From a virus: a stretch of DNA of 64,000 bases. The stretch spans positions 1-64,000 of IMG/VR virus record IMGVR_UViG_3300035696_000005; one strand, written 5' to 3'. The notes under the pieces were generated by a model. It had not been told where the DNA came from. It ran no database searches and saw nothing but the letters and a program-made list of their open reading frames with translations. Below, piece by piece: positions 13,985 to 62,789 of this stretch; within the stretch, counting starts at the first letter, position 1, and each line of letters opens with the position of its first letter. The position numbers and the translations under genes are program-made.

Positions 13985-14199
13985 TGGCGATCAGATGCTT
14001 TGCCCAACAAACTGTTATTGCTTTTATCTACGGAGCGGAGGCCGCCTTGATTCCACCCCCAGCACCCACTTCACCTGGAAACCAACCCCCCGATGAGAAA
14101 GCATTAGGCTTCCCGCAGCTTCTTGCTTTTCACGTTGAATATAGCCAAACGCCTCTTACTGATTTTACTGAGAAGGTCGATGAAAGAACTCAACCCTAG
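13984..14199 (+). CDS. Hypothetical protein
   Basis: TAATG coupling to the upstream stop. Confidence 0.5.
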   Translation: MAIRCFAQQTVIAFIYGAEAALIPPPAPTSPGNQPPDEKALGFPQLLAFHVEYSQTPLTDFTEKVDERTQP

Positions 14200-14344
14200 C
14201 TTCGCAAGAGGCTTTCATAAGGTAGCGACTAAACACCTGCCTGACTGGTTGAGATCAGCTCATCAGAAGATTGATGGACCTAAACTTCCGTCCTACAGTA
14301 AACGCGGTATTCGTGAGATGCTGAAAAGGCGGGGTGTACGATGA
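14180..14344 (+). CDS. Small GFxKxA-motif protein
   Basis: MKELNPSFARGFHKVA. Confidence 0.65.
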   Translation: MKELNPSFARGFHKVATKHLPDWLRSAHQKIDGPKLPSYSKRGIREMLKRRGVR

Positions 14345-15210
14345 ATACAGTTAAGTGGAATACTTTCGTCGATTCAGACGTCGATTCTTTCAATATCTAT
14401 CGATCGATTACAGGATTGAGTATTACATTTCCAAACTCTCTTCAAACTGGAGATGTTTTCCAGTTTGCGGCTACGAGCCCTACGGTTCAGAAAGTTACTA
14501 TTGGAGCTACTGACATTAACTCGGTTGCGGCGGCAATCAACGCCCAAGCCAAAGGACTCACAGCGACCGTAAGCCAGTCTGGTTTGGTTCTTTTTATTCG
14601 TTGCACTGCCAAAGAGAGAGCGAGACTAAAGCTCTACCCGTGTACCTTCCTCACACACCTAAGTATTCCTGTCTCGATCATCGTCCCACGATCAAACTTT
14701 GTCTTACTCGCAAACGTGGCTTTCGTTCCAGCTCCTTCTGCCTATAGTTACAGCGACTTGGACGGCAATCCGCTTGACTGGTATCATATTACTTCGGTCA
14801 AGAGTTCCATTGAAACCATTCCAAGTATCGATCAGAAGCCCATTATTACCCCTGAATCAGTCTGCACCGTAGAAGGACGCGTGATTGATGTACAGAACAA
14901 TCCTATTGTCGGCGCAGAGGTCCGTGCTTCCCCTATAGGCGGCGTTGAGACTTCAGACAACTCAGGGCTCGTTACACCCGGGATTGTGGCTTATACGGAC
15001 GATTACGGGCGTTGGAGCATGCCCCTCATTCAAGGTAAGCGCTTATTATTTGAAATCGCTTCTATAGGGTACTCCCAGGTTTGTGTTGTTCCATCCCAAT
15101 CCTTTTGTCTTTTCCAGAATCTAGAACCTGTTGATAGTTACTACTTCAGCCCATCAGGAGACTTCACCGGGGGATTTGACGTAGGTGTTGATGAAGACAT
15201 TATCGAGTAA
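14341..15210 (+). CDS. Probable virion protein with C-terminal carboxypeptidase-regulatory-like sandwich
   Basis: VEGRVIDVQNNPIVGAEV...TDDYGRWS pattern. Confidence 0.6.
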   Translation: MNTVKWNTFVDSDVDSFNIYRSITGLSITFPNSLQTGDVFQFAATSPTVQKVTIGATDINSVAAAINAQAKGLTATVSQSGLVLFIRCTAKERARLKLYPCTFLTHLSIPVSIIVPRSNFVLLANVAFVPAPSAYSYSDLDGNPLDWYHITSVKSSIETIPSIDQKPIITPESVCTVEGRVIDVQNNPIVGAEVRASPIGGVETSDNSGLVTPGIVAYTDDYGRWSMPLIQGKRLLFEIASIGYSQVCVVPSQSFCLFQNLEPVDSYYFSPSGDFTGGFDVGVDEDIIE

Positions 15211-15214
15211 AATT

Positions 15215-15730
15215 ATGGATATACATTCAGAGCTTCAAAGGTCTGGACGATGGCCTAATGGGTGCCAGACGCACAGGACGTGTAAAACTTGTAAACAAAA
15301 CCTCCCAATAGAGAACTTCAAGGGAACCGTTTTAAAGAAAACAGGCAAGTTTTATCATACCCATGGCGCATGCAAAGCCTGCGAAAGTATCGCAAGAAAG
15401 ATAAAATATAGAAGCGGATTCAGAGAGCGATTAAAGACACTAATGAAAAACGCTGAAGGCAGGTCGAGAAGAGAAGACCTGCCTTTTGATCTGGATCTTG
15501 AGTTCATAATGGCTCTAGGTGAGCGCCAAGAATGGAAGTGCTTCTACAGCGGAGAACCAATGAATTTCTCTGGGGGCACCTATTCTGCTAGTATAGACAG
15601 AAGAGATCCCCACCGTGGTTATACTAGGGATAACGTAGTATTGACGCTGTGGGTTGTAAACAACATAAAAAGAAACTTACCCGAAGAGGTTTTTAGGGAT
15701 CTTTGTAAAAAGATTGGTGGAGTTAAGTAA
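15215..15730 (+). CDS. Free-standing HNH-like endonuclease
   Basis: CxxC...CxxC N-terminus; CFYSG...SIDRRDPHRGYTRDNVVL; AT-richer than flanks. Confidence 0.7.
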   Translation: MDIHSELQRSGRWPNGCQTHRTCKTCKQNLPIENFKGTVLKKTGKFYHTHGACKACESIARKIKYRSGFRERLKTLMKNAEGRSRREDLPFDLDLEFIMALGERQEWKCFYSGEPMNFSGGTYSASIDRRDPHRGYTRDNVVLTLWVVNNIKRNLPEEVFRDLCKKIGGVK

Positions 15731-17626
15731 GTGGCAGGAACTGGCGGCGGACTAGAAACAGCAGCAGTAGATCCAGATCTACGGATGAACGCATCGCGCA
15801 ACCAGTTGCGCTATCCGTCGCCGTTCTTTGATGTTTCTCAACAATATGTCCCGCCCACAATCAAGGAGCTTTTTAAGTGGGTCTACTACTACGCGACCAA
15901 CAATTCTTTTCTTGGTCCTGCGCTCTCTAAGATTGCCCGTTATCCCGTTACTGACCTGATCCTTGAGGATAACAACCCTCAGCTTGTTGAGAACTGGAAG
16001 ATGCTTCTTAATAGCACGCTTCAGATCAAGACCTTCCTGATGGAGACCAATTTGGACTTGGTCACTTACGGTAATGCTTTCGTTACCATTCACTACCCGT
16101 CAGCTCGCTTTCTTAAGTGCGAAAAGTGCAAAGAGATCTTTCCTTGGAAGATGATCCAAAAGAAGATCGATAACCTACGCATTAAGATCAAATGTCTCAA
16201 GTGTGGTTATGATGGCGATGCAATTGTAAGAGACGTTCCATTCAAGTCTGTTGAGAACTTACGTCTGGTTCGAATCAACCCGGAGTTCATCGACATCAAG
16301 TACAACGACGCTACTGGACGGCACACCTATCTCTATTCAATTCCAGATAAACTCAAGCGCCAGATCATGAGCGGTGACCCGGATATCTTAGAGGATACGC
16401 CGCAGATCTATATTGATGCGATCAAGCAGCGTAAGAAGATTAAACTGAGCGGGCAAAACCTATTTCACCTCAAGCGACCAACTCTTGCTGGTAAAGACAT
16501 GGGCTGGGGAATGCCCCTGATTGCTGTTGCGCTAAAAGATCTTTATTACTTCTACACTCTCAGACGCGGTCAGGAATGTATCATCAACGAGCACATTGTT
16601 CCGTTTGATATCTTGTTCCCACAGTCCAACGGTAAGTTTGACCCTTACGTTCACTCGGATATTTCTTCTTGGAAAAGGGAAATCGAAAGACAGCTTGCTG
16701 CTCGACGAAAAGACCCAAACTACAAAGCAGTTACTCCGTTTCCCATTGGCTTTGAACGTATCGGCGGTGATGGTAAAGCGCTCATGCTTACCCCGGAAAT
16801 GGACTTCCTCTCAAAGACCATTATCGGCTCCGTTGGTATCCCGCAAGAGTTCGTCTTTGGTGGATCAATGAACTGGACTGGTTCTAGTATCAGTCTAAGA
16901 ACGCTTGAAAACGATTTCCTGCATCACCGCTCACAGCTTCTCCAACTAACGATTTGGCTGGTAGAGCGCCTTCGTATTTACATGGGCATTCCTACGCCTA
17001 AGACCATTAAGTTCTCGGACTTTAAGATGGCTGACGACGTTCAAAAACTTCAGCTTCTTATGGGAATGGCTTCGAACGAAAAGCTCGACTGGGATAGCCT
17101 ACAAAAAGAACTGGGCTACGATCCAGAAGTCATTAGAAAGAAAATTGAAGAACAGAAACTCTTTGAAGCCAAGATGCTTGAGATGCAGACAATTCGCGCA
17201 GCGGAAGCTCAAGCCAAAGCCCAGAAAGTTCAGCTTCGCTATCAACAGCAGATGCAAGAAGAAGCCGTTAATCAGAATGCCCAGATGGCTGAGCAGGCAG
17301 GACAAACTGATCAGGTGGATACGACTACTCAAATGCCTCCTGGAGCGGGCGGACCTGCAGATGCAGCCGGTGAAGCTCAAGATAAGACCATTCAAGCATG
17401 GGCTAAGAAACTTTCACAACAAGATCCACAGGCTCAAGCCCAAGCTCTTGCAAGACTTCATCAGAGCAATCCAGATTTTGCAGCAAAACTTAAGATGGCT
17501 ATTGCTCAGTTCTCAATTCCACAAATGCCGGAGGGACAACCAGGACAACAAAAACAATCCCCGAAAGGAGCGGATATGAGGCCGCTACCAACTCAGCGAC
17601 CACCGCGTAGACAGGGAGGCATCTAA
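15731..17626 (+). CDS. Portal protein
   Basis: 631 aa; LVTYGNAF and GWGMPLI portal-like segments; Q/P-rich tail; head-gene context. Confidence 0.7.
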   Translation: MAGTGGGLETAAVDPDLRMNASRNQLRYPSPFFDVSQQYVPPTIKELFKWVYYYATNNSFLGPALSKIARYPVTDLILEDNNPQLVENWKMLLNSTLQIKTFLMETNLDLVTYGNAFVTIHYPSARFLKCEKCKEIFPWKMIQKKIDNLRIKIKCLKCGYDGDAIVRDVPFKSVENLRLVRINPEFIDIKYNDATGRHTYLYSIPDKLKRQIMSGDPDILEDTPQIYIDAIKQRKKIKLSGQNLFHLKRPTLAGKDMGWGMPLIAVALKDLYYFYTLRRGQECIINEHIVPFDILFPQSNGKFDPYVHSDISSWKREIERQLAARRKDPNYKAVTPFPIGFERIGGDGKALMLTPEMDFLSKTIIGSVGIPQEFVFGGSMNWTGSSISLRTLENDFLHHRSQLLQLTIWLVERLRIYMGIPTPKTIKFSDFKMADDVQKLQLLMGMASNEKLDWDSLQKELGYDPEVIRKKIEEQKLFEAKMLEMQTIRAAEAQAKAQKVQLRYQQQMQEEAVNQNAQMAEQAGQTDQVDTTTQMPPGAGGPADAAGEAQDKTIQAWAKKLSQQDPQAQAQALARLHQSNPDFAAKLKMAIAQFSIPQMPEGQPGQQKQSPKGADMRPLPTQRPPRRQGGI

Positions 17627-18000: not shown

Positions 18001-18212
18001 TGCTGATTGAAAAAACCACCCGTAAGATCCTAAGATTTGATTTAAATTCGCCAGAGGATTTGGCTGAATATAACCGCCTACTTGCAAACCCTGCTGTGAA
18101 GGTCATTGAAAAGCAGGTCCACGAACAGAAGGAAAGCCACTTCGAAAAAGACTTTAGCGAAACTTCAACCCACCACGTTGCCTATCTTGAGGTGGAAGAA
18201 TGTTCGCTCTAG
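18000..18212 (+). CDS. Hypothetical protein
   Basis: Coupled ORF with GGAGG RBS. Confidence 0.6.
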   Translation: MLIEKTTRKILRFDLNSPEDLAEYNRLLANPAVKVIEKQVHEQKESHFEKDFSETSTHHVAYLEVEECSL

Positions 18213-18640
18213 GTTTTCAAAAAATCGCAATGTACGCCAGACATAACGACGGCACTGAGTTTAAAATTCAGGATACCGAACCATCTCCTTATGTTGCGGG
18301 TGTGGGTGGTATGTCGCCTTCCGGAATCCCCTCCTATAAACCTACTGAAACTACAGGTATGGGTAAGCCAAAATACGGCCCACAGCTTTCCCCCAAGGCT
18401 GCCGAAAAACAAAGAGCACTAGACATTGCGATGCTCAGTAAGATGGCGTCCCTTGGCGATCCAAGGGATTCCACGGCTTACGTTGGGACACAGGGACAAG
18501 GAGCAGACACGCTTTGCTCTCAGTTTAAATACGAGTCGGGATTCAATAACATTACGGAAGGCATGGGTTATAATAAAACCAAAGCGCCAAGCCGCTTAAT
18601 GAAGAACTTAAAGCAGCTATACAAGGGAGCCAAGAAATGA
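18200..18640 (+). CDS. GFxKxA-motif protein
   Basis: MFALGFQKIA; GAGG RBS. Confidence 0.7.
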   Translation: MFALGFQKIAMYARHNDGTEFKIQDTEPSPYVAGVGGMSPSGIPSYKPTETTGMGKPKYGPQLSPKAAEKQRALDIAMLSKMASLGDPRDSTAYVGTQGQGADTLCSQFKYESGFNNITEGMGYNKTKAPSRLMKNLKQLYKGAKK

Positions 18641-19017
18641 ACGGATTTGCAAAAGGTTTTCAAAAAGTAGCAGCTGGAGCAAGTCTTCTTGAGGGTGCGG
18701 CAAGCGCAGCTAAAAAAATCGGCATTGGCGCTACACGCGTGGCCAAAGGCGCAGTGGGCGGTGCTGGAGAAGCGATGAAAGGCACTATCGGTGATGCACT
18801 GAAACTCAAAGGACTAAGCCATCTATCTGATGCTTACAAGACCCACGGCGTTGGAGGACTTAAGACCAAGGCCGGACAAAAGGCTTGGGGTGAGGCAATC
18901 GGTAAGGCTGCACCTTCTCTTGCGGCTGGCGGTGCTTACGCTGCTGCTGGTAAAAAGATTTACGATAAAACTCTGGGTTCCAATAAAGATCAAGCCTCTG
19001 CGGGGTATTATTACTGA
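18637..19017 (+). CDS. GFxKxA-motif Gly/Ala-rich protein
   Basis: MNGFAKGFQKVA; LAAGGAYAAAG segment. Confidence 0.75.
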   Translation: MNGFAKGFQKVAAGASLLEGAASAAKKIGIGATRVAKGAVGGAGEAMKGTIGDALKLKGLSHLSDAYKTHGVGGLKTKAGQKAWGEAIGKAAPSLAAGGAYAAAGKKIYDKTLGSNKDQASAGYYY

Positions 19018-19193
19018 TGGCTTTCAAAGAAGGTTTTAAGAAAGTAGCACAGGGAAGTATTGGTCAAATGATTGGCTTTCCAGGAGCTACGCCTAATGTC
19101 GGAAAGGCTACGCCCAAGCCGCCTCCTCCGCCCAAGAATGTTTCTGCTGGCGGTAAAACTCTTGGACAAATGATTGGGTTCCCCGGTAGTTGA
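19017..19193 (+). CDS. Small GFxKxA-motif protein (absent from the ORF track)
   Basis: MAFKEGFKKVAQGSIGQMIGFPG..., 58 aa, TGATG coupling. Confidence 0.75.
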   Translation: MAFKEGFKKVAQGSIGQMIGFPGATPNVGKATPKPPPPPKNVSAGGKTLGQMIGFPGS

Positions 19194-19202: not shown

Positions 19203-19427
19203 ATGTCATTTAAAACAGGCTTCCAAAAAATTGCTCAAGGTGACGCTATCGGCTCTGCCAGGGATATCAAAGATTTTACAAAAGGATATACCGCAGGCGG
19301 TCCCTCTCTTGCTCAAACCATGAGTAACTTTAAAAAAGCTTTTGGATTTGGAGGCGGTAATGCAGCCCCTAAGCCCATGGCACCTCCTCCAGCCGCACCC
19401 GGTAACGTTGGAAAGATGGGAGGCTAA
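19203..19427 (+). CDS. Small GFxKxA-motif Pro-rich protein
   Basis: MSFKTGFQKIA. Confidence 0.75.
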   Translation: MSFKTGFQKIAQGDAIGSARDIKDFTKGYTAGGPSLAQTMSNFKKAFGFGGGNAAPKPMAPPPAAPGNVGKMGG

Positions 19428-19628
19428 ATGGCGTTCAAAAAAGGTTTTCAGAAGGTTGCCACTGACGGAACTCTCGGTTCAAGAATCGGCTTTCCTGGAA
19501 GCGTTACAGCACCGCCCAAACTTCCAAAACAACCTGCTCCCCCAAAGACCCCTATCGGTACACCAGGAGTTGGAGAAGCCATGAGTAAAGGCTTCGCAAG
19601 TATTCGTAAAGCCTTTGGTGGGACCTAA
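19428..19628 (+). CDS. Small GFxKxA-motif Pro-rich protein
   Basis: MAFKKGFQKVA. Confidence 0.75.
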   Translation: MAFKKGFQKVATDGTLGSRIGFPGSVTAPPKLPKQPAPPKTPIGTPGVGEAMSKGFASIRKAFGGT

Positions 19629-37212: not shown

Positions 37213-37442
37213 TGTTTGCAGCAGGTTTTACTAAAAAAGCTGGCGTTGTCTCTTCCCTAAAGCGCGCCGTCGGACTCAAGCCCAGCGCTCACTCTCATAT
37301 GTCGCGTCTTGCGGATAAGGCACTGGAGAAGATGAATCTCCCTACCAGCCTTGTGGGAAGCACTCAGGGAAAAGCGCGTACCGCTCGTGGCGTTCACCAG
37401 CTAGAACGCCTCCAACACTTCTATAAGAGCAAAATGGCTTAA
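37212..37442 (+). CDS. Small GFxKxA-motif protein
   Basis: MFAAGFTKKA. Confidence 0.7.
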   Translation: MFAAGFTKKAGVVSSLKRAVGLKPSAHSHMSRLADKALEKMNLPTSLVGSTQGKARTARGVHQLERLQHFYKSKMA

Positions 37443-51966: not shown

Positions 51967-52842
51967 GTGGCTGAGTATCGAGATAAGGAAACATTAAACA
52001 CTTTTGCCAAAATTGCCGCAGATGAATATCTAGGCAGTAACAAAACTTCTCTTAACACGACGCTTAAGAAAATCGCCTCTCAAGAACACCTCACTCCCTT
52101 CCAAATTGAATACGTCGCATCAGAAGCCAACAAGGCTGTTTGGGGGAAACTCTTTTCTATGGATAAACAAGCAAGTTACGATTTCCCTCTGGCTGATTCT
52201 AAAGAGGTCCTAAAAGATCTGCAGGTAAGTAATTCACCAGGCGAGGTAAAGACTGCGGATCTAGACTACCTGAGTCCTCCGGTTTCCACCAAGATTGCTT
52301 CTTTTGATCCTCTCAAAGCTATGGGCTTTGTTGAGGAGAATATTGAAAAGAGCGCATCAGCTCGCAAGGAAGTTAAGAGACAACTCCAATACCGTCTTGA
52401 GAAAGTCTCGCATGCCAAAGAAGAACTAGAGCGTGAGCTTTACGTTGCGAACACGAAGATCGAGGAGCTTGAAACAAGTTTTGTAAAGACAGCTCGAAAC
52501 ATGATTCTGGAATATCCTTTTGAGCAGCGCGGTGAAGCGATGGATAAGATTGCCGAGTTTCTTCGTGCCTCAAGTGAAAAGCCCGACCAAAACCGAATGC
52601 TCATCAAAAAGCTCGCACACGTGATGAAGAGGCAGGGGCTTGTTAAAGAGGCCGACCTGAAAGCTCCCGAGCAGTACATCAGTGATAAACTTCCTTGCCG
52701 TGTTGTAAACGGACGACATCAACTCTCCGTTCTCGTGAAAACCATCATGGATCAATACGACTGGAGAGATACGCTTTTCCATCGCTATGAAATCGTAGAT
52801 AGCAGTCTGCCTACGATTAAGGAGAAGATCCGTGAGCTTTAG
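51967..52842 (+). CDS. Probable head/core protein
   Basis: Repeated K-x-A (FAKIAA, LKKIAS, TKIAS, EKSAS). Confidence 0.65.
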   Translation: MAEYRDKETLNTFAKIAADEYLGSNKTSLNTTLKKIASQEHLTPFQIEYVASEANKAVWGKLFSMDKQASYDFPLADSKEVLKDLQVSNSPGEVKTADLDYLSPPVSTKIASFDPLKAMGFVEENIEKSASARKEVKRQLQYRLEKVSHAKEELERELYVANTKIEELETSFVKTARNMILEYPFEQRGEAMDKIAEFLRASSEKPDQNRMLIKKLAHVMKRQGLVKEADLKAPEQYISDKLPCRVVNGRHQLSVLVKTIMDQYDWRDTLFHRYEIVDSSLPTIKEKIREL

Positions 52843-53050
52843 AGATGGCTTCGATAAAACAGCAGGCATTGTCAGTGTAATTGGCAAAGGTGCCAAAATG
52901 CTTGGCAAGGGACTTACTCGCGCTGCAAGTGGCAACATCTCTAAGCCTCTGGGTCTAATGGATTATGCTGCTGCAGGTCTAACGGCTGCGGGTGCTGCAG
53001 GACAAGCAAAAGATATGTCTCAGCAGATGAGACAGGCTGCCATGAGGTAA
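52832..53050 (+). CDS. Small GFxKxA-motif protein
   Basis: MSFRDGFDKTA (GTG start). Confidence 0.7.
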   Translation: MSFRDGFDKTAGIVSVIGKGAKMLGKGLTRAASGNISKPLGLMDYAAAGLTAAGAAGQAKDMSQQMRQAAMR

Positions 53051-54339: not shown

Positions 54340-56277
54340 GTGGACAAGCGATTGATTCTTCCTCAGAACATCGGGGATAGAAGGGACGTCTACTTCGTCA
54401 AAGAAGATAGGCAGTTTCTGCGCAAGCACGCATCAAGCTACCACCCGAAGATTGCTGAATATATCGAGAAGGCAAAGCCCATCCCGAACCTGATTCAGGT
54501 TCTGCTCACAGCCCTTGGCGCTTACGAGTTCTGGGGACAGAATGTAAACGGGGATCGCTTTAGGGTTCCTGCTCTCACTCACGAAGGCAGCGATTACGGC
54601 TACCAAACGTTTACTTCTAACGCTAACTATTTCACCCATCACGTGAATAAAGATCCAGCACTCGCTAAAGGGCAAGTGCTTCATGCTGTGTGGAACGAGG
54701 CTGGTAAGCGCGTTGAGCTTATCGTGGGAATTAATCCATCTCTTGATCCAGAAGGTGCCGCAATGGTGGATCGTGGAGATGATGTTACGTTCTCCATGGG
54801 AGCCAAAGTCCCCTTTGACGTTTGTTCAATCTGCCATCACAGAGCGAAAACTCGCGCCGAATACTGCGACTGCCTTCGCTATATGATGAATCAGATTGAT
54901 CCGATGTCCAACCAGCTGGTTGGAGCAGACAACCTCTTTCCTAAATTTTTCGATATTAGCCGCGTTTTGATTCCAGCCGATAAAACAGCCCATATGTGGA
55001 CGAAGGTGGCTTCTGCTCTCAATCCGTACAGAGCGCTTGGAAGTGCTCAACTTGCTGAACTTCCTGCGGGCACGCTCAATAACCCGGAATATCTTCTCAA
55101 GAAAGTAGCCGAGCAGCAGGAATTCGCTCGTGAGAAGCTAGGCACACAGAAGATCTCCGCAGTGAGTAAAAACGCCACGATCACAAAGCGGGTCGAGTTC
55201 ACGGCTTCTCCCAAGCTCGTCTCGCGGCTTCAGGAATCTGTCCCAACATCAAAAGCGCTACTTCAAGAAACATCCCCATCTCTTTCAGAAAAATCTTTTG
55301 AGGAGATGGCTAAGAATCATGTATCGCTTCAACAGCTTCTTTCGACAATGGCTGTTTTGGGGATGGAGCCCACACTAGAGGAGTCTGGCCATATCTTAAA
55401 GGCATTCGGTGCTGTGCCCGAACACCTCTCCTTGGGTCCTACACATTTTCATGAAGGCGTTTCCCGTAGGCTTCTTCCTTTGGTTTCCGAGCGCTCTTTT
55501 GCTCGTCCGGTACTTACAAGAAGGATCGTTGGATTAGCAAATAAACTGGATGCCGGAGATGCGGAGACAGTTAAAAAAGCTGAGGCAATCCAAGACATTA
55601 TGTTAAGAAAACCTCAAGACAAAGGAATGCACCCCGGCTATCTTGCGGGTCTAGCTGCAGCACTTTATGCACTCTTTGGTCCTCACGCTACTGGGTTGGC
55701 ACAGGGGATTGGTAAGGCAATGGCGGATTACCCGTACATCCTTCTTCCACTAGGAATGGGGGCTTTGGCTGGGTATAAAGTTCTTTCAACTCCGACGCAG
55801 ACTGGTTTTTATAATGTTGACGATTCTTTAGCCGGTCTCTACAATAAGAGCTACCAGAGTCGTTTTGCGGAAATGCAAGCGCGACCTGTTACGGTTATCA
55901 AAACCGGGGCTGCAAAAGCCGACCCAGAGTTGGCGAAAAAAATCTTCTATGGAGTTCCTGCGATCTATCTTGGATCGAAGGTTCTAAAAGCACGTGAAGA
56001 AAGTCATCCTGAAAAGCAGCCCGGTACAATTTCACATCTCATTGCTTCAAACCCAGAACTTCTCTCAGTTGGACTCATTGGTGAGCACCTTGCCGGACGA
56101 CCAGTTAGTCAAAGGGTTGGGAAGGCAATCGAGTCCGGAAAACGAATTATCAAATCAGCATCAATCCGAGATCTAGAATTTTTAGAGGCTGTTCCTGAAT
56201 CAGAAAGAGAACTGATTTGGGATGTCGCCATCCTTGATGCTGCAGATCGCATTAACAAGAAAGTGTTAGGAGGATGA
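54340..56277 (+). CDS. Prohead maturation protease, putative
   Basis: NVNGDRF, HHVNKD, VELIV, FSMGAKVPFDVCSICH; located upstream of scaffold-like and capsid genes. Confidence 0.7.
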   Translation: MDKRLILPQNIGDRRDVYFVKEDRQFLRKHASSYHPKIAEYIEKAKPIPNLIQVLLTALGAYEFWGQNVNGDRFRVPALTHEGSDYGYQTFTSNANYFTHHVNKDPALAKGQVLHAVWNEAGKRVELIVGINPSLDPEGAAMVDRGDDVTFSMGAKVPFDVCSICHHRAKTRAEYCDCLRYMMNQIDPMSNQLVGADNLFPKFFDISRVLIPADKTAHMWTKVASALNPYRALGSAQLAELPAGTLNNPEYLLKKVAEQQEFAREKLGTQKISAVSKNATITKRVEFTASPKLVSRLQESVPTSKALLQETSPSLSEKSFEEMAKNHVSLQQLLSTMAVLGMEPTLEESGHILKAFGAVPEHLSLGPTHFHEGVSRRLLPLVSERSFARPVLTRRIVGLANKLDAGDAETVKKAEAIQDIMLRKPQDKGMHPGYLAGLAAALYALFGPHATGLAQGIGKAMADYPYILLPLGMGALAGYKVLSTPTQTGFYNVDDSLAGLYNKSYQSRFAEMQARPVTVIKTGAAKADPELAKKIFYGVPAIYLGSKVLKAREESHPEKQPGTISHLIASNPELLSVGLIGEHLAGRPVSQRVGKAIESGKRIIKSASIRDLEFLEAVPESERELIWDVAILDAADRINKKVLGG

Positions 56278-56280
56278 GCA

Positions 56281-56907
56281 ATGGCTACACTACAGGAATT
56301 AATGGCTGAGGTTCTTGGAGAGACCAATCAGGGTCAGGAAAAGACAGCTTCGGCATCCAAGGTTTCTTCGACAGCTGAAGTCGATCAAATGTTGGAAAAT
56401 TTGGGACTCCAAGGTGCAGAATCTGTCAAAACAGCGTCTGCTGCTGCGGAAAAGAAAAATGGAGGAAACATGAGCCTTTCTGATATCTACGAACAAATCA
56501 TGGGCGGAATCGCTCCGGAAGCTGGTCAGGAAAAGACTGCCGCTGCTGGCGACGGTGCTACTCAGACTACTGAAGGTGATGAGCAATCGACCGCATTCGG
56601 CGAACTTGTCGCTGAATACTTTGCTGAGATCGCTGAGCCTTACTACGAAAAAGTTGCTTCTGATCTTGAAACGGAAGCTGGCAAAGGCGAAACCCCGCTT
56701 CAACACGTTCAGACTGGTGGCTCAATGACCACTGCTCTTGGCAAGCCTGCTGAGCCTCGCCTTGAACAGAACCACAGCGCTTCTAGCGGTGCTGCTATCC
56801 ATGCTGCTGTTCAAAACAGCACTCCTTACGCTCTTCGTGAAGCTGCTCTGAAGAAGACGATTCTGAAGCGTATGGCTGCGGCTCCGGTTGGCAACATCGT
56901 TGACTAA
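56281..56907 (+). CDS. Scaffold-like acidic protein
   Basis: EKTASA, VKTASA, EKTAAA, EKVAS. Confidence 0.6.
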   Translation: MATLQELMAEVLGETNQGQEKTASASKVSSTAEVDQMLENLGLQGAESVKTASAAAEKKNGGNMSLSDIYEQIMGGIAPEAGQEKTAAAGDGATQTTEGDEQSTAFGELVAEYFAEIAEPYYEKVASDLETEAGKGETPLQHVQTGGSMTTALGKPAEPRLEQNHSASSGAAIHAAVQNSTPYALREAALKKTILKRMAAAPVGNIVD

Positions 56908-56935
56908 TTCAAAGAGTGAATGAAGGAGATTCCTA

Positions 56936-57715
56936 ATGGAAAAGAACATTTTTGACGAAATTGAAAAAATGACGGACGCTGAGAAGCAAGCGCTTCTCAA
57001 CACCCAATTCCCGGAAGAGCTTGAGAAAGAAGCTGCTGCTGAACTCGATACTTCTCTTCTTGCTGACGCTCTTTACAGCTACGGCTGGCTTCAAGCTCAA
57101 CGCGCTCTTGCAGACGTTGATGGTCTCGACAAAGTCGCTGCCGATGACCTCAAGGCTCATGAGCAAGCTGAAGAAGAGGTTGCTGAACAGATTGAGGCTT
57201 GCCTTCAGTCCCTCGGCACTCACGTAAATGAAGACGATGCTGAACTTCATAAAGAAGCTCAGGTCTGCGCTGCTTTGATCTTTGACGGCTTCAGTGACTG
57301 CATTGAACAGGGCTGCATGGATAAGGAAGCTGCTTCGGCTATGGCTGCTAAAGCTGGCAAGATGGCTATGAAAGGTCTTCACAAAATGAAGGCTGCTGGC
57401 AAGAAAGTCGGCAAGAAAGCCCTTGGACTGGCCAAAAAGCATGGTGGTAAGGCTGCACTTTTTGGTGGCGGTGCTGCTGCTGCAAAACTCCATTCCGCTA
57501 TGAGCAAAGAGTCTGGCGCTCTTACTCCGGAACAACTTGTTGAGATTGCTTCTGATGTCGCTCTTGAAAAGCAAGCTACCATTACTGTCATTGAAGATGG
57601 CATCAATAAGCTTGCTGCTAAGGGGGCTCACAAAGGTAAGAAGCTCAAGGACATGATGAAGAGTTCTAAGTCGAGCGCTTCGTCTGCTTCGTCTAAGTCG
57701 AGCAAGTCGAGCTAA
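56936..57715 (+). CDS. Scaffold-like protein
   Basis: EKEAA, DKVAA, HKEAQ, DKEAA; S/K low-complexity tail. Confidence 0.6.
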   Translation: MEKNIFDEIEKMTDAEKQALLNTQFPEELEKEAAAELDTSLLADALYSYGWLQAQRALADVDGLDKVAADDLKAHEQAEEEVAEQIEACLQSLGTHVNEDDAELHKEAQVCAALIFDGFSDCIEQGCMDKEAASAMAAKAGKMAMKGLHKMKAAGKKVGKKALGLAKKHGGKAALFGGGAAAAKLHSAMSKESGALTPEQLVEIASDVALEKQATITVIEDGINKLAAKGAHKGKKLKDMMKSSKSSASSASSKSSKSS

Positions 57716-57728
57716 GGAGTAATCAACT

Positions 57729-58211
57729 GTGCGTGTGAAGCCTCTACAAGAATTGCTGGATCAGGCAGATGCTCTCTGCAAAGGTACAGCCTTGTCTAAA
57801 GTAGCTTCCGCTCAAGAGTCTGAGGTTTCAGCTCTAGCGAATTTACTCGTTGGAGCTGAAACCGATGTCAAAGTTGATTACGATCCAGAAGCTTTTAAGC
57901 AGACTGAGATCGATAAGATTGCGGAGAGTTTAAACCGCGTTCAGACTGCATCTGAAATCGACGTGGTGCTGAAGTTGGCTGATTTTGAGAAGAAAGCCCA
58001 GGCAGAGGGATACACTCAAGAGCAGATCAATGAAGCCTTCTCGAAGATTGCTGCAGAGAAGATCGCTAAAAACATTCCGCTTTTGGCTGCAATGGGATTC
58101 GTTGGTTTCACGGGTGAGGATAAAAACTCTCCCACCAAGAAACCCGATAAGAAGAAGTCGCAGCGTCAGCTTCTCGGTCGTCTGGATCTTACAAAGAGCA
58201 TGGGGTATTAA
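57729..58211 (+). CDS. Scaffold-like protein
   Basis: SKVAS, DKIAE, SKIAA. Confidence 0.55.
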   Translation: MRVKPLQELLDQADALCKGTALSKVASAQESEVSALANLLVGAETDVKVDYDPEAFKQTEIDKIAESLNRVQTASEIDVVLKLADFEKKAQAEGYTQEQINEAFSKIAAEKIAKNIPLLAAMGFVGFTGEDKNSPTKKPDKKKSQRQLLGRLDLTKSMGY

Positions 58212-58213
58212 GC

Positions 58214-58570
58214 ATGGAAACAAAAGTGATCAGCCCCGCACAAATTAAGCTAGCTGGTGAGATGCTCAAGAAAGAGCACTCTGAGAGACTCAGACTTGAG
58301 AAAGTCGCTGCGGATTTCGAAAAGAAAGCCAAGGCAGAGAAGCTGGCATTTAGGGAAGTTGAACTAGGTATTACCGAACCCTATAAGAATTTCGATGAGT
58401 TCCAAAAGAAGGTTGCTTCTCTTTTGGATGACGACCTCGAAGTTTTGGAAAAGGCTCTTGATCGGGGCTATGGGTCTTCCCGACGTGTGGGCGAGCTCGC
58501 AGATGCGGGTGGAAAAGTAAACAATCCCTTCGAACACTTTGTTCGTACGGGTGAACTTGTAACTGAGTAA
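58214..58570 (+). CDS. Scaffold-like coiled-coil protein
   Basis: EKVAA; C-terminal NPFEHFV typical of a capsid-binding tail. Confidence 0.55.
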   Translation: METKVISPAQIKLAGEMLKKEHSERLRLEKVAADFEKKAKAEKLAFREVELGITEPYKNFDEFQKKVASLLDDDLEVLEKALDRGYGSSRRVGELADAGGKVNNPFEHFVRTGELVTE

Positions 58571-59099: not shown

Positions 59100-60068
59100 A
59101 TGTCATTTAGTGAAGAGGCAGTCACATTTAATAACCTGTTTGTCGAGAGAATGGACACTCAAGATGGACAGGTTAAGACGGCTCAGGCAGGTCAAGCTTA
59201 TGTCCGGTCGTTCTTGCGTGAACACTCGTTCAGCCGCAAGATTCTACCGCCAGAAAGCGTTACCCGCGCTGATCTAACCCGTTCTACGCGCCACGATACT
59301 CTCATCAAGATCGTGGACTTTGAACATCCTTCCACTGCTGCTGCGGTTAACTTCCGCTCGGCTGGTCGTGAGCGTTACTTGCAGGGAACTCGCTATGCGG
59401 TTCCGTTCTTTAAGGTTGAGAGCGATCTCTTCGTTAAGAACGAAGCTGAATTGCTAGCCTACGAGTATCCAATCACGAAGGTGATCGAAGAGAACTCAAT
59501 CAAGGACATCATGTTTGTCGAGGACTCGACCTTTATTTCGGCTTCTGCTGGCGCTGTCAGCACGTCGGGTAAGTTCATTGCCTCTTCGGATACGTCGGTC
59601 TCTCGCACGAACTTGAACAAGCTGTTCAAGATGCTCGACAATGATAAGCTCCAGTCGATGGTTGTTCTGATGACCAACGTCGACTTCGACGACTGGCACG
59701 TTCAGCCTGCGACTGACGTCGGTTCTCCGTTGGCTACTGAGCTCACGATTAACGGCTACAAGTATGAGACAATCATGCGTCGCCGTGTGATCGTTACCAA
59801 TAAAGTGGATTTGCTCGCTCCGGGCTCCATTTATTGCTACACCGATCCTCAGTTCCTCGGAAACTTCTTCATCCTGAACGACGTCAAGTTCTGGATTAAG
59901 AAGGAAGCCGATAAGGTCTTCTGGAAGACCTGGGAATATGTTGGCGTGGGCATCGCTAACCTTCGCTCGATCGCTCAGATTACTCTGAACGTTCCTGCAA
60001 TCCCTGGCCCAGGCTACTCTGGAACCTTTGGTCCGAACTTGTTCGCACCTGGTTATCCGGTCGCCTAA
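59100..60068 (+). CDS. Major capsid protein (HK97 fold)
   Basis: 322 aa; FSRKILPP...; strong GGAGG RBS; biased codons; followed by a terminator. Confidence 0.8.
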   Translation: MSFSEEAVTFNNLFVERMDTQDGQVKTAQAGQAYVRSFLREHSFSRKILPPESVTRADLTRSTRHDTLIKIVDFEHPSTAAAVNFRSAGRERYLQGTRYAVPFFKVESDLFVKNEAELLAYEYPITKVIEENSIKDIMFVEDSTFISASAGAVSTSGKFIASSDTSVSRTNLNKLFKMLDNDKLQSMVVLMTNVDFDDWHVQPATDVGSPLATELTINGYKYETIMRRRVIVTNKVDLLAPGSIYCYTDPQFLGNFFILNDVKFWIKKEADKVFWKTWEYVGVGIANLRSIAQITLNVPAIPGPGYSGTFGPNLFAPGYPVA

Positions 60069-60128: not shown

Positions 60129-60177
60129 TTGTTCACGTTAATTTATTGTGGTAACTTTTTCCTAGAAGGAGACACAA

Positions 60178-60747: not shown

Positions 60748-60765
60748 AGCGTGTAAGATGGGGGT

Positions 60766-61236
60766 ATGCAGTTAACCACCATCGACAAGCACAGGCTCGA
60801 CAAAGCACGTGAATATCTCAGGTTATTCCTTATGGACACGGAGGAGCTTAATAGGCTCCTCCGTCGTAAGGAAATCGATGACAAAAGACTCGACCTAGCG
60901 ATCCAGCTCACAATCAGCGATTGGAATACAACCACCCCGCTGATTGCTAACGTAACAATCGGAAATTTTCCAAGCTTTTATCTTCTCATCCATGGTGCAG
61001 CTATCCAGTGTTTGAAGATGGCTGGGCTCTACCAGAGTCGCAACGAACTTACTTACAATTCAGGTGGTAGCTCTTTTATTCGCGCTAACAAAACTGCCTA
61101 CTATCAGTCTTGGATTCAGAACTTCGCTACTGAATATGAAACCAAGAAACTCAACATGAAGATTCAGCAAAACGTTCAAGGTGGTTACGGGGCTGGTTTT
61201 CACAGCGAGTACTCACTCATTGGATATGACTGGTGA
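60766..61236 (+). CDS. Head-tail adaptor/neck protein, putative
   Basis: Helical ORF after the capsid gene; LYQSRNELTYNSGG. Confidence 0.55.
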   Translation: MQLTTIDKHRLDKAREYLRLFLMDTEELNRLLRRKEIDDKRLDLAIQLTISDWNTTTPLIANVTIGNFPSFYLLIHGAAIQCLKMAGLYQSRNELTYNSGGSSFIRANKTAYYQSWIQNFATEYETKKLNMKIQQNVQGGYGAGFHSEYSLIGYDW

Positions 61237-61239
61237 TCC

Positions 61240-61443
61240 ATGTTTTGCGATGGCTTTAAGAAAGTTGCATTTCAGGCTCCCAAGGCAGCTTCTAAAAGCC
61301 GCTATAACGTGCCTAAACGCCTCTCTAAGCCGCTTGCTGTGCAGGTGACGGGCAAAGCCCTAAGCAAGAATCCTTTTGCGGCGGGGGCAGATGGACAAGC
61401 GGTTGGAGCCATGTACGGTGGCAATACGCATGCGGGGTGGTAA
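61240..61443 (+). CDS. Small GFxKxA-motif protein
   Basis: MFCDGFKKVA. Confidence 0.7.
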   Translation: MFCDGFKKVAFQAPKAASKSRYNVPKRLSKPLAVQVTGKALSKNPFAAGADGQAVGAMYGGNTHAGW

Positions 61444-61599
61444 ATGGGCTTTACCAAAGGCTTTGAAAAGATAGCTGGTAAAAAAGAGAAGGAAAAAGAG
61501 AAACCGAAAGTCGAAGTTAAAAAGACTAGTCCTATCCGCCTACCTTCCAAGTACTATACCGGCATTATGGTCGATACGAACGACCCTCAGGACGGATAA
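61444..61599 (+). CDS. Small GFxKxA-motif protein (absent from the ORF track)
   Basis: MGFTKGFEKIAGKKEKEKEK..., 51 aa. Confidence 0.7.
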   Translation: MGFTKGFEKIAGKKEKEKEKPKVEVKKTSPIRLPSKYYTGIMVDTNDPQDG

Positions 61600-62789
61600 T
61601 GAGCTTTACTTCCGGATTTTCCAAGCATGCTGAATCTCTTGCCCCGAAGACCCATTACGGGACAAGGAGTATTCATAAGCTTGATCCGGAACATCCTGGT
61701 GAGGCTTGGTCTGCGAAAATTGACGGAGCCCATACCATCATCAAGTTTAAAGCAGGCAAGCTTCCTGATCTCTTCTCTCACCGTCAATCTAAACGAACTG
61801 GCGGGAAGATTGATTACACCGCTAAGCTTCCCAATATCAAACGAAAGGTCAACTTCGATGGGCAATTCAGGGGAGAAACGTATGCTGTCGACCCTTCTGG
61901 CAAAGCAGTTGAGCCTGAAGTCGTTACTTCTATCCTTAATCGTGGTGTTGATAACTCTCTACGCTTTCAAAAAGAGCACAGGTTAAAAACAAGAGTTGCT
62001 CTGATTAACGTCGACAAGTATCTGGGGAAAAGCTTACACAACGCTACCTTCGAAGAAAAAAGAAACGTCATGGAGCAAGTGGCTAAAATGAACCCAGATT
62101 TCACTTTACCTGCTTTGGCAACAACACCCAAGGCAAAGCTTAAGCTTAAAGAGCATGTTCTCTCTGGTGAACACCCACAATCCAGAGAGGGACTGATCGT
62201 ACACAGACTGGGTGAGGCTGGCTCGCCTTTTGCGAAAGCAAAGATCTTCAAAGAACATGACGTTTATGTAAGAGACATCTTCAAAGAAGAGAGCACAACA
62301 GGACGTAAACCCATGGCTGGTGGCTTTTATTATTCCTGGACACCTGATGGAGAAATTAAAGGTCGTGTCGGCAGCGGGTTTGACCATGCTGAAAAAGAAG
62401 ACATGCTCAAAAATCCAAACCGCTATATTGGTCTTGTGGCTCGCGTTCAGGCCACCAACGTTTCTAAGAATAAAGTTCTCTTGAAGCCCTCTTTCAAACA
62501 CTGGCACGTTGAGAAGAATATTGGACTAGAGAAGGCAGCCACCATCTTCGCCAAGCAATCGATCATCATCGACAAGACCCATGAACCCGATCGAGATAAG
62601 GCCAAGGAAGTTGCTCGTGGTTTTGCTGACAAGATTTACACCTCTCGTGGCACTAAAACTCAGTGGCGTTTTAGGCAAAGACCCCCGGGATTGTTCATCC
62701 CCGGAAGCTTTAGACATGCTAAAATTAAACCAGGCGTTTCAATCATCTATGGACAAATTGATGAGAAAAGGAAACGTAAGACTTCGTAA
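61599..62789 (+). CDS. ATP-dependent DNA ligase with GFxKxA N-terminus and extra C-terminal domain
   Basis: WSAKIDG (motif I), RGE, EGLIV, KAK, OB-fold GRVGSGF; MSFTSGFSKHA start. Confidence 0.8.
   Translation: MSFTSGFSKHAESLAPKTHYGTRSIHKLDPEHPGEAWSAKIDGAHTIIKFKAGKLPDLFSHRQSKRTGGKIDYTAKLPNIKRKVNFDGQFRGETYAVDPSGKAVEPEVVTSILNRGVDNSLRFQKEHRLKTRVALINVDKYLGKSLHNATFEEKRNVMEQVAKMNPDFTLPALATTPKAKLKLKEHVLSGEHPQSREGLIVHRLGEAGSPFAKAKIFKEHDVYVRDIFKEESTTGRKPMAGGFYYSWTPDGEIKGRVGSGFDHAEKEDMLKNPNRYIGLVARVQATNVSKNKVLLKPSFKHWHVEKNIGLEKAATIFAKQSIIIDKTHEPDRDKAKEVARGFADKIYTSRGTKTQWRFRQRPPGLFIPGSFRHAKIKPGVSIIYGQIDEKRKRKTS

What the first reader, a model, noticed from the sequence alone, without database searches (positions are those of the whole stretch)
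14180..62789. Family-wide N-terminal tag (F-x-x-G-F-x-K-x-A) on at least 14 dissimilar proteins: candidate capsid-targeting/cargo system
Seen: the following ORFs start with the same peptide and then mostly diverge: 14180 (SFARGFHKVA), 18200 (MFALGFQKIA), 18637 (GFAKGFQKVA), 19017 (AFKEGFKKVA), 19203 (SFKTGFQKIA), 19428 (AFKKGFQKVA), 28568 (AFADGFKKEA), 29050 (MFTVGFLKEA), 37212 (MFAAGFTKKA), 51575 (MFIHGFQKLA), 52832 (SFRDGFDKTA), 61240 (MFCDGFKKVA), 61444 (GFTKGFEKIA) and 61599 (SFTSGFSKHA). Variants occur at 17626, 45690 and 53054. Codons vary synonymously (GGT/GGC/GGA, TTT/TTC, AAA/AAG), so the constraint is on the protein. All 14 lie in plus-strand virion operons, and none of the recognisable early enzymes (SSB, PolA, phosphatase) carries the tag. 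Established: T4 internal proteins use a roughly 10-aa N-terminal capsid-targeting sequence removed by the gp21 protease. Inference: this is an analogous, unrelated loading signal for a large set of injected cargo proteins.
Basis: partly seen in the sequence, partly recalled or inferred. Interest (0 to 1): 0.88.

Follow-up and report, generated by a model that had tools for sequence, protein, structure and literature searches.

The report
Shared head-loading tag on phage proteins
About 22 otherwise unrelated proteins of this uncultured 182-kb phage, a DNA ligase among them, start with the same nine-residue tag, which ends in the motif where the phage's own T4-like head protease most likely cuts, so the tag is probably a "load into the capsid, then clip off" label like the one known from phage T4, here with a different code and on far more proteins.

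Summary
F-x-x-G-F-x-K-x-A occurs 14 times in the window, against 0.01-0.04 expected. It occurs 21 times in the whole genome, always on the + strand, and 20 of the 21 are at an ORF start. With the tag removed the proteins are unrelated.

The last five residues (hydrophobic-x-K-x-A, then a small residue) form a motif that saturates the head-module proteins. It brackets the protease domain and sits at residues 24-28 of the capsid protein, where K-x-A is kept in 117 of 120 homologs. The protease model has the T4 gp21 / herpesvirus assemblin fold (Z 9.5).

The tag recurs across a large uncultured clade in lineage-specific versions, for example FWxGFEKRA. Orthologous ligases, helicases and NUDIX enzymes carry the local version. 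The cultured relatives Arash and phage G share the K-x-A motif.

Best reading (0.6): a capsid-targeting and cleavage leader analogous to the T4 CTS, on about 8% of the genes. Packaging, cleavage and injection are all untested. The scan noted the same tag family on other genomes. I found no paper describing it. Novelty: new variant of a known kind.

The parts
14180..14344 (+). Tagged ORF, 54 aa. The tag FARGFHKVA is at residues 8-16, the only one not at the extreme N-terminus.
18200..18640 (+). Tagged ORF, 146 aa (MFALGFQKIA). First of five tagged genes just downstream of the portal gene.
18637..19017 (+). Tagged ORF, 126 aa (MNGFAKGFQKVA), Gly/Ala/Lys-rich. An ortholog in G002 carries MSFVKGFSKIA.
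19017..19193 (+). Tagged ORF, 58 aa (MAFKEGFKKVA). Weak paralog of 19428.
19203..19427 (+). Tagged ORF, 74 aa (MSFKTGFQKIA).
19428..19628 (+). Tagged ORF, 66 aa (MAFKKGFQKVA).
28568..29044 (+). Tagged ORF, 158 aa (MAFADGFKKEA), immediately after the RNA polymerase gene. An ortholog in G002 is tagged.
29050..29475 (+). Tagged ORF, 141 aa (MFTVGFLKEA).
37212..37442 (+). Tagged ORF, 76 aa (MFAAGFTKKA).
51575..51907 (+). Tagged ORF, 110 aa (MFIHGFQKLA), first gene of the head module, with weak glycine-zipper hits. Orthologs in 7 related loci all carry the tag (MFLTGLNKVA, MFIKGFHKLA, MLFSTGLKKIA and others).
52832..53050 (+). Tagged ORF, 72 aa, GTG start (MSFRDGFDKTA).
61240..61443 (+). Tagged ORF, 67 aa (MFCDGFKKVA).
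61444..61599 (+). Tagged ORF, 51 aa (MGFTKGFEKIA), very basic.
61599..62789 (+). Tagged ATP-dependent DNA ligase relative, 396 aa (MSFTSGFSKHA, a linker of about 30 residues, then the KIDG motif). Orthologs carry lineage-specific tags and a few homologs have none.
54340..56277 (+). Head maturation protease (residues about 32-224) fused to a C-terminal extension of about 420 aa. Conserved FLRKHA|S lies before the domain and TKVA|S after it.
59100..60068 (+). Major capsid protein, 322 aa, with G-Q-V-K-T-A|Q at residues 23-29.
51967..52842 (+). Scaffold/core-like protein, 291 aa, with 10 K-x-A sites (8 of them hydrophobic-x-K-x-A against 0.85 expected). The site residues are 87% conserved in orthologs against 53% for other columns.
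56281..58570 (+). Four scaffold/core-like proteins (208, 259, 160 and 118 aa) with 5, 12, 6 and 5 K-x-A sites.
6594..7721 (+). 375-aa protein with 18 K-x-A sites (13 of them hydrophobic-x-K-x-A against 1.5 expected), lying away from the head module. Probably another processed core protein.
34208..36796 (+). 862-aa protein with 12 K-x-A sites (9 of them hydrophobic-x-K-x-A against 2.65 expected). Function unknown.
15731..17626 (+). Portal protein, homolog of phage G gp14 (E 7e-17). Five tagged genes follow it.
22467..28568 (+). Fused beta-beta' multisubunit-type RNA polymerase, untagged. It is the counterpart of Arash gp206 and gp216, which were detected in Arash virions.

Best explanation
The tag is a two-part N-terminal leader. 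Its last five residues (hydrophobic-x-Lys-x-Ala, usually followed by a small residue) are a substrate site of the phage's own prohead protease. That enzyme has the T4 gp21 / herpesvirus assemblin fold and is fused to a scaffold-like C-terminal extension. The upstream residues (Phe at P9, Gly at P6, Phe rather than any hydrophobic residue at P5) add an address. The address lets the tagged protein bind a component of the assembling prohead core, either the protease-scaffold protein, another core protein or the inner capsid surface. The protein is thus enclosed in the prohead. When the protease is activated it cuts the scaffold/core proteins into short peptides, trims the capsid protein after residue 28, frees itself at both ends, and clips the tag off the cargo. 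The cargo (small basic Gly/Ala-rich proteins, a DNA ligase, and in relatives SNF2 helicases and NUDIX hydrolases) then stays in the head and is probably delivered with the DNA. Shown here: the tag, its statistics, its conservation and lineage-specific versions, the enrichment and conservation of the K-x-A motif, and the protease fold. Inferred: that K-x-A is the cleavage site, which bond is cut, that the tag causes packaging, and that the cargo is ejected.
For: (1) The tag occurs 14 times in the window against 0.01-0.04 expected, and 21 times in the genome, all on the + strand in late blocks and 20 of them N-terminal. (2) The tagged proteins are unrelated once the tag is removed. (3) Hydrophobic-x-K-x-A is enriched 3- to 9-fold over composition in head-block proteins: 13 against 1.5, 8 against 0.85, 7 against 1.35, 5 against 0.6. 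Site residues are 87% conserved in orthologs of 51967, against 53% for other columns. (4) The capsid protein has K-x-A at residues 24-28 in 117 of 120 homologs. In the clade at about 63% identity it reads E-G-[LI]-Q-K-T-A-A, that is G-hydrophobic-x-K-x-A as in the tag. (5) The protease domain is flanked by conserved hydrophobic-x-K-x-A|S sites in 29 relatives. (6) The protease model (pLDDT 79.7) best matches T4 gp21 (Z 9.5, rmsd 3.0 over 129 residues) and then VZV protease (Z 8.1). It has sequence homologs in phage G gp19, which is annotated as a head maturation protease. (7) Tags carry three extra fixed positions that are absent from 76 internal sites. This matches the layout of the T4 CTS, where the address lies N-terminal and processing lies at the end (PMC9026906). 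(8) The tag is found across the clade in lineage-specific versions. Leaders ending in the motif occur on 4-10% of + strand ORFs against under 1% of - strand ORFs in 80 loci. Complete relatives have about 20 and about 12 tagged genes. (9) Orthologous ligases, SNF2 helicases and the 64014 family carry the local tag version, while some ligase homologs start at the catalytic core with no tag, so the tag is a module. (10) The cultured relatives Arash and phage G show the same K-x-A saturation of head proteins, and Arash virions contain many enzymes including the RNA polymerase.
Against: There is no experimental evidence for cleavage, packaging or ejection in this phage or any relative. The Arash paper gives no peptide-level data, and its virion list looks broad enough to include contaminants. 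The phage G structure paper was not available. The residue after the tag is more variable (A, G, Q, T, M, E, D, N, V, F) than at internal sites, which are mostly A or S. A conserved third catalytic His was not identified in the protease alignment. The presumably virion-borne RNA polymerase has no tag, so the tag is not the only route into the particle. One tag copy is internal (166485). The capsid-protein model failed (pLDDT 43), so the position of residue 28 relative to the HK97 fold is unknown.
Confidence: 0.6

Rival explanations
1. Processing site only. The leader is cut by the head protease but does not cause packaging. The proteins enter the prohead by other contacts, and the leader merely caps or regulates them until maturation.
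For: The C-terminal half of the tag equals the general head-protein motif. The untagged RNA polymerase shows that other routes into the particle probably exist.
Against: A 9-residue cap on more than 200 unrelated protein families, including enzymes whose untagged homologs start at the catalytic core, has no obvious purpose other than an address. Tags fix three extra positions (P9, P6, P5 = Phe) that ordinary cleavage sites lack. All tags in a genome change together between lineages.
Confidence: 0.15
2. Docking peptide that is not cleaved. Hydrophobic-x-K-x-A is a repeated binding motif, for example for the capsid interior, portal or scaffold, rather than a cleavage site. The tag would then anchor proteins permanently in the virion.
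For: Enrichment and conservation of a motif cannot by themselves distinguish binding from cutting. The K-T-A segment of the capsid protein is highly conserved, as a structural contact would be.
Against: The motif brackets the protease domain exactly where T4 gp21 and herpesvirus assemblin cut themselves free. It occurs every 20-30 residues in scaffold-like proteins, the pattern of core proteins that are degraded. Ala at P1 followed by Ser or Ala is the specificity of assemblin-fold proteases of herpesviruses (own knowledge).
Confidence: 0.12
3. Non-virion function. The tag would be an N-terminal amphipathic helix for membrane or compartment targeting (its GF-x-K core recalls the MinD membrane-targeting helix, own knowledge), or an N-terminal degron.
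For: F, F and A at positions i, i+4 and i+8 would lie on one face of a helix. Several tagged proteins have glycine-zipper-like segments.
Against: This does not explain the same motif inside the capsid protein, protease and scaffold proteins. It also does not explain tags on a DNA ligase, SNF2 helicase and NUDIX enzymes, or the restriction to late structural operons.
Confidence: 0.06
4. The invariant Lys is the acceptor site for the phage's own ubiquitin-like conjugation system.
For: A ThiF-type E1 was confirmed at 105023-105532.
Against: Complete relatives G002 and G003, and phage G, have the tag or the K-x-A motif but no ThiF-type E1.
Confidence: 0.02

Closest known systems
Capsid targeting sequence (CTS) of phage T4 internal proteins IPI, IPII, IPIII and of Alt, removed by prohead protease gp21 (Mullaney & Black 1996; reviewed in PMC9026906)
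   Same: Both are N-terminal leaders of about 10 residues on otherwise unrelated proteins. Both have an address in the N-terminal part and the protease's cleavage motif at the end. The protease has the same fold (Z 9.5 to T4 gp21), and cargo sets vary between related phages.
   Different: There is no sequence similarity (F-x-x-G-F-x-K-x-A against MKTYQEFIAE). The predicted cut is after Lys-x-Ala instead of Leu/Ile-x-Glu. About 22 tagged genes (about 8% of the genome) compare with a handful in T4. Cargo includes a DNA ligase, and SNF2 helicase and NUDIX enzymes in relatives. The protease is fused to a long C-terminal extension. Nothing has been tested experimentally.
Propeptides of head and ejection proteins of phiKZ-like giant phages (phiKZ gp175, SPN3US gp245; cleavage after S/A/G-x-E or A-x-E; PMC5694885, PMC10052503)
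   Same: Both are large phages with a virion-associated multisubunit RNA polymerase. In both, many head proteins are processed by a gp21-type protease at a short motif that recurs in many proteins.
   Different: Those propeptides are mostly long (60-160 residues) and dissimilar to one another, with Glu at P1. Here a uniform 9-residue tag is reused, and the inferred P1 is Ala.
Herpesvirus assemblin-scaffold polyprotein (pUL26/UL80a), with release and maturation sites (PMC4498786)
   Same: An N-terminal protease domain of the same fold (VZV protease Z 8.1) is fused to a scaffold-like C-terminal part. A conserved site lies directly after the protease domain. Ala at P1 with Ser or Ala at P1' matches the herpesvirus consensus (V/L/I)-x-A|S (own knowledge).
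   Different: This is a bacteriophage, and Lys is fixed at P3. The motif is also used as an N-terminal tag on many cargo proteins, which is not known for herpesviruses. The Ser-His-His triad is not fully identified here.
Salmonella phage Arash and Bacillus/Lysinibacillus phage G (cultured relatives)
   Same: They have homologous capsid protein, protease, portal and RNA polymerase. Their head proteins show the same K-x-A saturation. Phage G has short N-terminal leaders ending in K-x-A (MKRLISKTA, MKRLIKKA).
   Different: Their leaders differ in sequence and are less uniform. Neither published account that I could read mentions the motif or a tag.

Membership tests
T4-type capsid targeting sequence (CTS) system | Short (about 10 aa) N-terminal leader shared by otherwise unrelated proteins | tested here: met
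   There are 22 ORFs with the tag at residues 2-12. With the tag removed, all-against-all BLAST finds only one weak pair.
T4-type capsid targeting sequence (CTS) system | Leader ends in the cleavage motif of the phage's own prohead protease | tested here: inconclusive
   The tag's end equals the motif enriched and conserved in scaffold-like proteins, flanking the protease domain and at capsid protein residues 24-28. That this motif is the cleavage site is inferred and was not measured.
T4-type capsid targeting sequence (CTS) system | Prohead protease of the gp21 / assemblin fold | tested here: met
   AF2 model with pLDDT 79.7. The top match among 48,161 chains is T4 gp21, 5jbl_A, Z 9.5, rmsd 3.0 over 129 of 165 residues. 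VZV protease follows with Z 8.1. Foldseek alone gave only weak hits.
T4-type capsid targeting sequence (CTS) system | Sequence likeness to the T4 CTS and a Leu/Ile-x-Glu cleavage motif | tested here: not met
   The tag is F-x-x-G-F-x-K-x-A with no Glu at its end.
T4-type capsid targeting sequence (CTS) system | Leader necessary and sufficient for encapsidation, with cargo in virions and ejected into the host | not testable with these tools
   This needs virion proteomics and reporter fusions in a cultured relative.
Herpesvirus-type assemblin-scaffold fusion | N-terminal protease domain followed by a release site and a scaffold-like C-terminal region | tested here: inconclusive
   The domain spans residues about 32-224. 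Conserved K-V-A|S lies at 222-225 in most of 29 relatives, followed by a helical, poorly conserved extension of about 420 aa. Cleavage is not shown.
Herpesvirus-type assemblin-scaffold fusion | Ser-His-His catalytic triad | tested here: inconclusive
   H100, H101 and S152 are invariant (also D160, D205, S207). No conserved second His downstream of the Ser was found.
ATP-dependent DNA ligase (PF01068) for ORF 61599 | Adenylation domain with the KxDG motif, plus an OB domain | tested here: met
   phrog_114 E 2e-11. Homologs carry PF01068 or are named ATP-dependent DNA ligase. AKIDGAH is present. The protein's own Pfam OB hit is below the cut-off, and there is no PDB sequence hit.
Type IV prepilin leader (cleavage G|F) | Short basic leader ending in Gly, then Phe, a hydrophobic stretch and Glu at +5 | tested here: not met
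   After G-F come polar residues (x-K-x-A plus variable sequence), with no hydrophobic segment and no Glu5.

The most novel reading that the evidence does not exclude
A large uncultured clade of phages of about 165-190 kb, with cultured outliers Arash and phage G, may use a reusable and evolvable 9-12-residue address code. The code would end in the Lys-x-Ala site of a gp21/assemblin-type protease and load hundreds of unrelated protein families, including DNA ligase, SNF2 helicase and NUDIX enzymes, into the capsid for delivery with the DNA. All tags in a genome change in step with their receptor. The Ala-P1 specificity would link phage and herpesvirus maturation proteases.
Probability: 0.45. 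Interest if true: 0.78.

Novelty: new variant of a known kind. Interest (0 to 1): 0.64.

Why it matters
If the reading holds, it has four consequences.

First, it turns the T4 capsid-targeting principle from a peculiarity of T4-like phages into a general, portable code. The same logic appears with a different motif and protease specificity, on about 8% of the genes of a widespread but almost unstudied phage clade.

Second, it gives a sequence-only way to read the injected proteome of uncultured phages. Candidate early-acting effectors and anti-defence proteins are marked by their first ten residues.

Third, it predicts a virion-borne DNA ligase, helicase and NUDIX enzymes.

Fourth, it offers a short tag for loading foreign proteins into capsids of cultured relatives such as Arash and phage G.

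The predicted Lys-x-Ala|Ser specificity of a gp21-fold protease also bears on the evolutionary link between phage and herpesvirus maturation proteases.

Tried and rejected
1. Nucleotide search of the head region against 50,697 phage records found no match.
2. Pfam and PHROGs scans of most tagged proteins found no family. The kinase reading of 64014 rests only on E of about 0.03 to MEK1 N-lobes, so I treat it as unproven.
3. The AF2 model of the capsid protein was meant to place residue 28 relative to the HK97 fold. It had pLDDT 43 and was unusable.
4. Foldseek of the protease model against the PDB gave only weak hits (best E 0.04, herpesvirus proteases). The full VIA-align search was needed.
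6. The phage G capsid paper (PMC7316594) is not held. The Arash supplement holds annotation only, with no peptides. The 2026 jumbo-phage review does not mention propeptides or targeting.
7. The Ubl-acceptor hypothesis was rejected: E1 is absent from tagged complete relatives.
8. The prepilin-leader and N-degron readings were rejected from the sequence. There is no hydrophobic stretch, and Met-Phe keeps its Met while M-A/S/G-F exposes A, S or G.
9. I tested simple covariation between P2 of the capsid site and P2 of the tags across clades. It holds only in locus L071 (K-L-A in both) and is not general.
10. The 391-aa tagged protein of L052 is not an ortholog of the window's ligase.
11. tblastn found orthologs of the small tagged proteins in the 20-kb related loci for only a few of them.

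Full report
**Observation.** Shuffled windows give a mean of 0.013 matches, and amino-acid composition predicts 0.04.

The window is the first 64 kb of a complete 182,359-bp virus record. The whole genome has 21 strict matches, all on the + strand. Twenty sit at an ORF start, with the first Phe at residue 2-4 (residue 8 in ORF 14180). One is internal, at 166485. There are two near-variants at 67758 and 69255.

Codons vary synonymously at every fixed position, and most tagged ORFs have a Shine-Dalgarno-like sequence upstream. With the tag cut off, all-against-all BLAST links only 19017 and 19428 (E 0.003). So this is not a paralog family.

**What the phage is.** The window encodes these recognisable proteins:
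- a large terminase (38807-40564);
- a 2033-aa fused beta-beta' RNA polymerase (22467-28568);
- a major capsid protein (59100-60068, phrog_2522);
- a 645-aa protein whose N-terminal part weakly matches a head maturation protease family;
- a portal (15731-17626), homologous to phage G gp14.

The nearest cultured phages are distant (about 30% identity). They are Salmonella phage Arash, Vibrio phages D69/D181/D148, Bacillus phage G and, for the protease only, cluster C mycobacteriophages. The RNA polymerase corresponds to Arash gp206 plus gp216, which gave the highest and fifth-highest spectrum counts in the Arash virion proteome (PMC10585845). The capsid protein has at least 440 homologs in metagenomes, many on contigs of 160-178 kb. 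So this is a large uncultured clade.

**The tag ends in a motif that pervades the head module.** Hydrophobic-x-K-x-A is strongly over-represented in a specific set of proteins, compared with shuffles of each protein:

| ORF | observed | expected |
|---|---|---|
| 6594 | 13 | 1.5 |
| 34208 | 9 | 2.65 |
| 51967 | 8 | 0.85 |
| 54340 | 5 | 1.4 |
| 56936 | 7 | 1.35 |
| 57729 | 5 | 0.6 |

The 76 internal K-x-A sites in these proteins prefer Leu/Ile/Phe at P5 and Ala/Ser at P1'. In eight orthologs of 51967 the K and A of the sites are 87% conserved, against 53% for other columns and 58% for other Lys/Ala residues.

The capsid protein has G-Q-V-K-T-A|Q at residues 23-29. K-x-A at this place is kept in 117 of 120 homologs. 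In the clade at about 63% identity it reads E-G-[LI]-Q-K-T-A-A, that is G-hydrophobic-x-K-x-A as in the tag.

In an alignment of 29 protease relatives, a hydrophobic-x-K-x-A|S/A/G site lies about 30 residues from the N-terminus, in the sequences that include that region. A K-V-A|S/A site lies directly after the conserved FFDIS...AD(K/R)xA block, in those that extend that far. The two sites bracket the catalytic domain.

The cultured relatives show the same motif pattern. Arash gp220, gp223 and gp225 have 10, 8 and 7 sites. Its protease has 7, and its capsid protein has Q-G-L-V-K-E-A|G at residues 23-30. The phage G protease gp19 has 7 hydrophobic-x-K-x-A against 0.8 expected, and several small phage G proteins begin MKRLISKTA or MKRLIKKA.

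**The protease.** An AlphaFold2 model of residues 1-275, built on 29 sequences, has mean pLDDT 79.7, with residues 1-31 disordered. Aligned against 48,161 PDB representatives, the best match is the T4 capsid assembly protease gp21 (5jbl_A, Z 9.5, rmsd 3.0 Å over 129 of 165 residues). Next is varicella-zoster virus protease (Z 8.1). Foldseek alone gave only weak herpesvirus-protease hits.

H100, H101 and S152 are invariant. A conserved second His was not identified.

The layout is a protease domain, then a conserved site, then a long C-terminal extension. This is the layout of the herpesvirus assemblin-scaffold precursor with its release site (PMC4498786). From my own knowledge, herpesvirus assemblins cut (V/L/I)-x-Ala|Ser, so Ala at P1 with Ser/Ala at P1' has a precedent within this fold. 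T4 gp21 and the phiKZ-type enzymes cut after Glu (PMC5694885). Which bond of K-x-A is cut here is an inference.

**The tag is more than a cleavage site.** Compared with the internal sites, the 22 tags fix three further positions: Phe at P9 (22 of 22), Gly at P6 (22 of 22), and Phe rather than any hydrophobic residue at P5 (21 of 22). This is the two-part arrangement shown for the T4 capsid targeting sequence. There the first 10 residues of IPIII suffice for packaging, targeting depends mainly on residues 4 and 7, and processing depends on residues 8 and 10 (PMC9026906). The capsid protein's own N-terminal segment also has two aromatic residues four apart (F-N-N-L-F) upstream of its K-T-A. The tag may therefore be a compact mimic of that segment, but this is speculation.

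**Conservation and concerted change.** Eighty related IMG/VR loci with capsid identity of 38-90% were fetched. Their tags fall into lineage-specific versions:

| Capsid identity to the window | Tag version |
|---|---|
| 73% or more | M(x)F-x-x-G-[FLI]-x-K-x-A |
| 57-65% | M-x-x-F-W-x-G-F-E-K-[RQ]-A, plus M-Y-x-x-G-F-x-K-L-A |
| 54-55% | F-[LM]-x-G-F-x-x-E-L-[LVI]-K-x-A |
| 38-45% | looser leaders that still end in hydrophobic-x-K-x-A |

Leaders ending in the motif within 16 residues occur far more often on + strand ORFs than on - strand ORFs:

| Capsid identity group | + strand ORFs with leader | - strand ORFs with leader |
|---|---|---|
| 73% or more | 44 of 438 | 4 of 531 |
| 57-65% | 104 of 1042 | 8 of 1363 |
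| 54-55% | 17 of 460 | 2 of 535 |
| 38-45% | 33 of 696 | 9 of 930 |

Two complete relatives carry about 20 tagged genes (G002, 175 kb, F-x-x-G-F type) and about 12 (G003, 167 kb, F-W-x-G-F type). A permissive pattern finds about 346 distinct tagged ORFs in 212 sequence clusters, with some false positives.

**The tag behaves as a module on recognisable enzymes.** ORF 61599 belongs to the ATP-dependent DNA ligase family: phrog_114, homologs with PF01068, and an AKIDGAH motif. Its orthologs across the clade carry the local tag version, for example MFIEGFLKIA, MNSFWEGFEKQA and MDNFWTGFEKRA. A few homologs (P0143, P0152, P0165, P0168) and the distant LigD-like ones start at or near the catalytic core with no tag. 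NUDIX-ligase fusions are tagged too (P0140, P0151, P0157). In related loci, an SNF2-family helicase (L035) and NUDIX hydrolases (L026, L069) carry tags. The SNF2 cluster and the family of ORF 64014 show the same switch of tag version between lineages. Many unrelated proteins changing their tags in step is what a shared, co-evolving receptor predicts.

**Genomic setting.** All tagged genes lie in + strand late blocks, and none lies in the - strand replication and early blocks. Their positions are:
- one upstream of the portal gene and five directly after it;
- two directly after the RNA polymerase;
- one between 34208 and the terminase;
- three at each end of the head module;
- seven among the neck, sheath and tube genes beyond the window;
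- one or two in the distal tail block.

Recognisable sheath, tube, portal and terminase proteins and the RNA polymerase are untagged.

**Rivals.** A cleavage-only leader, an uncleaved docking peptide, and a membrane or degron signal are set out in the Rival explanations section. I tested whether the invariant Lys could be its acceptor. A ThiF-type E1 is present in this genome and in Arash. It is absent from the complete tagged relatives G002 and G003 and from phage G, so the tag does not depend on that system.

**Known or new.** The T4 CTS and the propeptides of phiKZ-like phages are established. I found no paper that mentions a Lys-x-Ala maturation code, or a shared N-terminal tag, in Arash, phage G or this clade. 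The one paper most likely to bear on it, the phage G capsid paper, was not available. The scan itself has noted the same tag family on other genomes (notes e1-5944530 and e1-5816453) and the K-x-A motif on several more. So this window is one instance of a clade-wide feature.

I class it as a new variant of a known kind. The logic is that of T4. What differs is the code, the scale and breadth of cargo, a likely assemblin-like specificity, and the absence of any experiment so far.

Noticed in passing
window 61599-62789; proteins P0140, P0151, P0157: The tagged DNA ligase family also exists as tagged NUDIX-ligase fusions of 475-658 aa in relatives. A virion-loaded ligase would be unusual. It could seal nicks or join genome ends on entry.
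   Followed up: partly
G000 166320-166727 (L003 6320-6727): A 135-aa ORF begins with an MPFVSQAQRGLFYHKK-type domain and carries a full tag copy (AFVEGFKKVA) internally at residues 56-65. If the tag is cut, this protein would be split in two. Relative G003 has internal and C-terminal tag copies as well.
   Followed up: no
window 6594-7721: A 375-aa protein has 18 K-x-A sites, about one per 20 residues. It lies among tail-fibre-region genes, far from the head module, and has no family match.
   Followed up: partly
window 22467-28568: A single-chain beta-beta' RNA polymerase corresponds to two separate, virion-detected genes in phage Arash (gp206, gp216). It has no tag, but two tagged genes follow it directly.
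   Followed up: partly
G000 105023-105532 (minus strand); Arash 176809-177291: A ThiF-type E1 is present in this phage and in Arash. It is absent from the two complete close relatives G002 and G003 and from phage G, so the Ubl cassette is patchily distributed in the clade.
   Followed up: partly
window 2179-2574 and 8592-10166: ORFs in the fibre region start with signal-peptide-like sequences (MKKLFLLVLLFASSAQA, MRKWISIAAIFLNLIRAAHA), which is unusual for virion proteins.
   Followed up: no
window 45690-45905 (minus strand): A 71-aa ORF in an early-gene block starts MAFKSGLISKA. This resembles the tag, but Lys is one position closer to Ala. It could be chance, a decayed tag, or a differently used leader.
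   Followed up: no
L090 (phage G 9000-30000): Phage G small proteins near the portal begin MKRLISKTA (gp13), MKRLIKKA (gp38) and MSKKISRLKKTA (gp20). This looks like a phage G version of the leader, in a cultured phage where it could be tested.
   Followed up: partly
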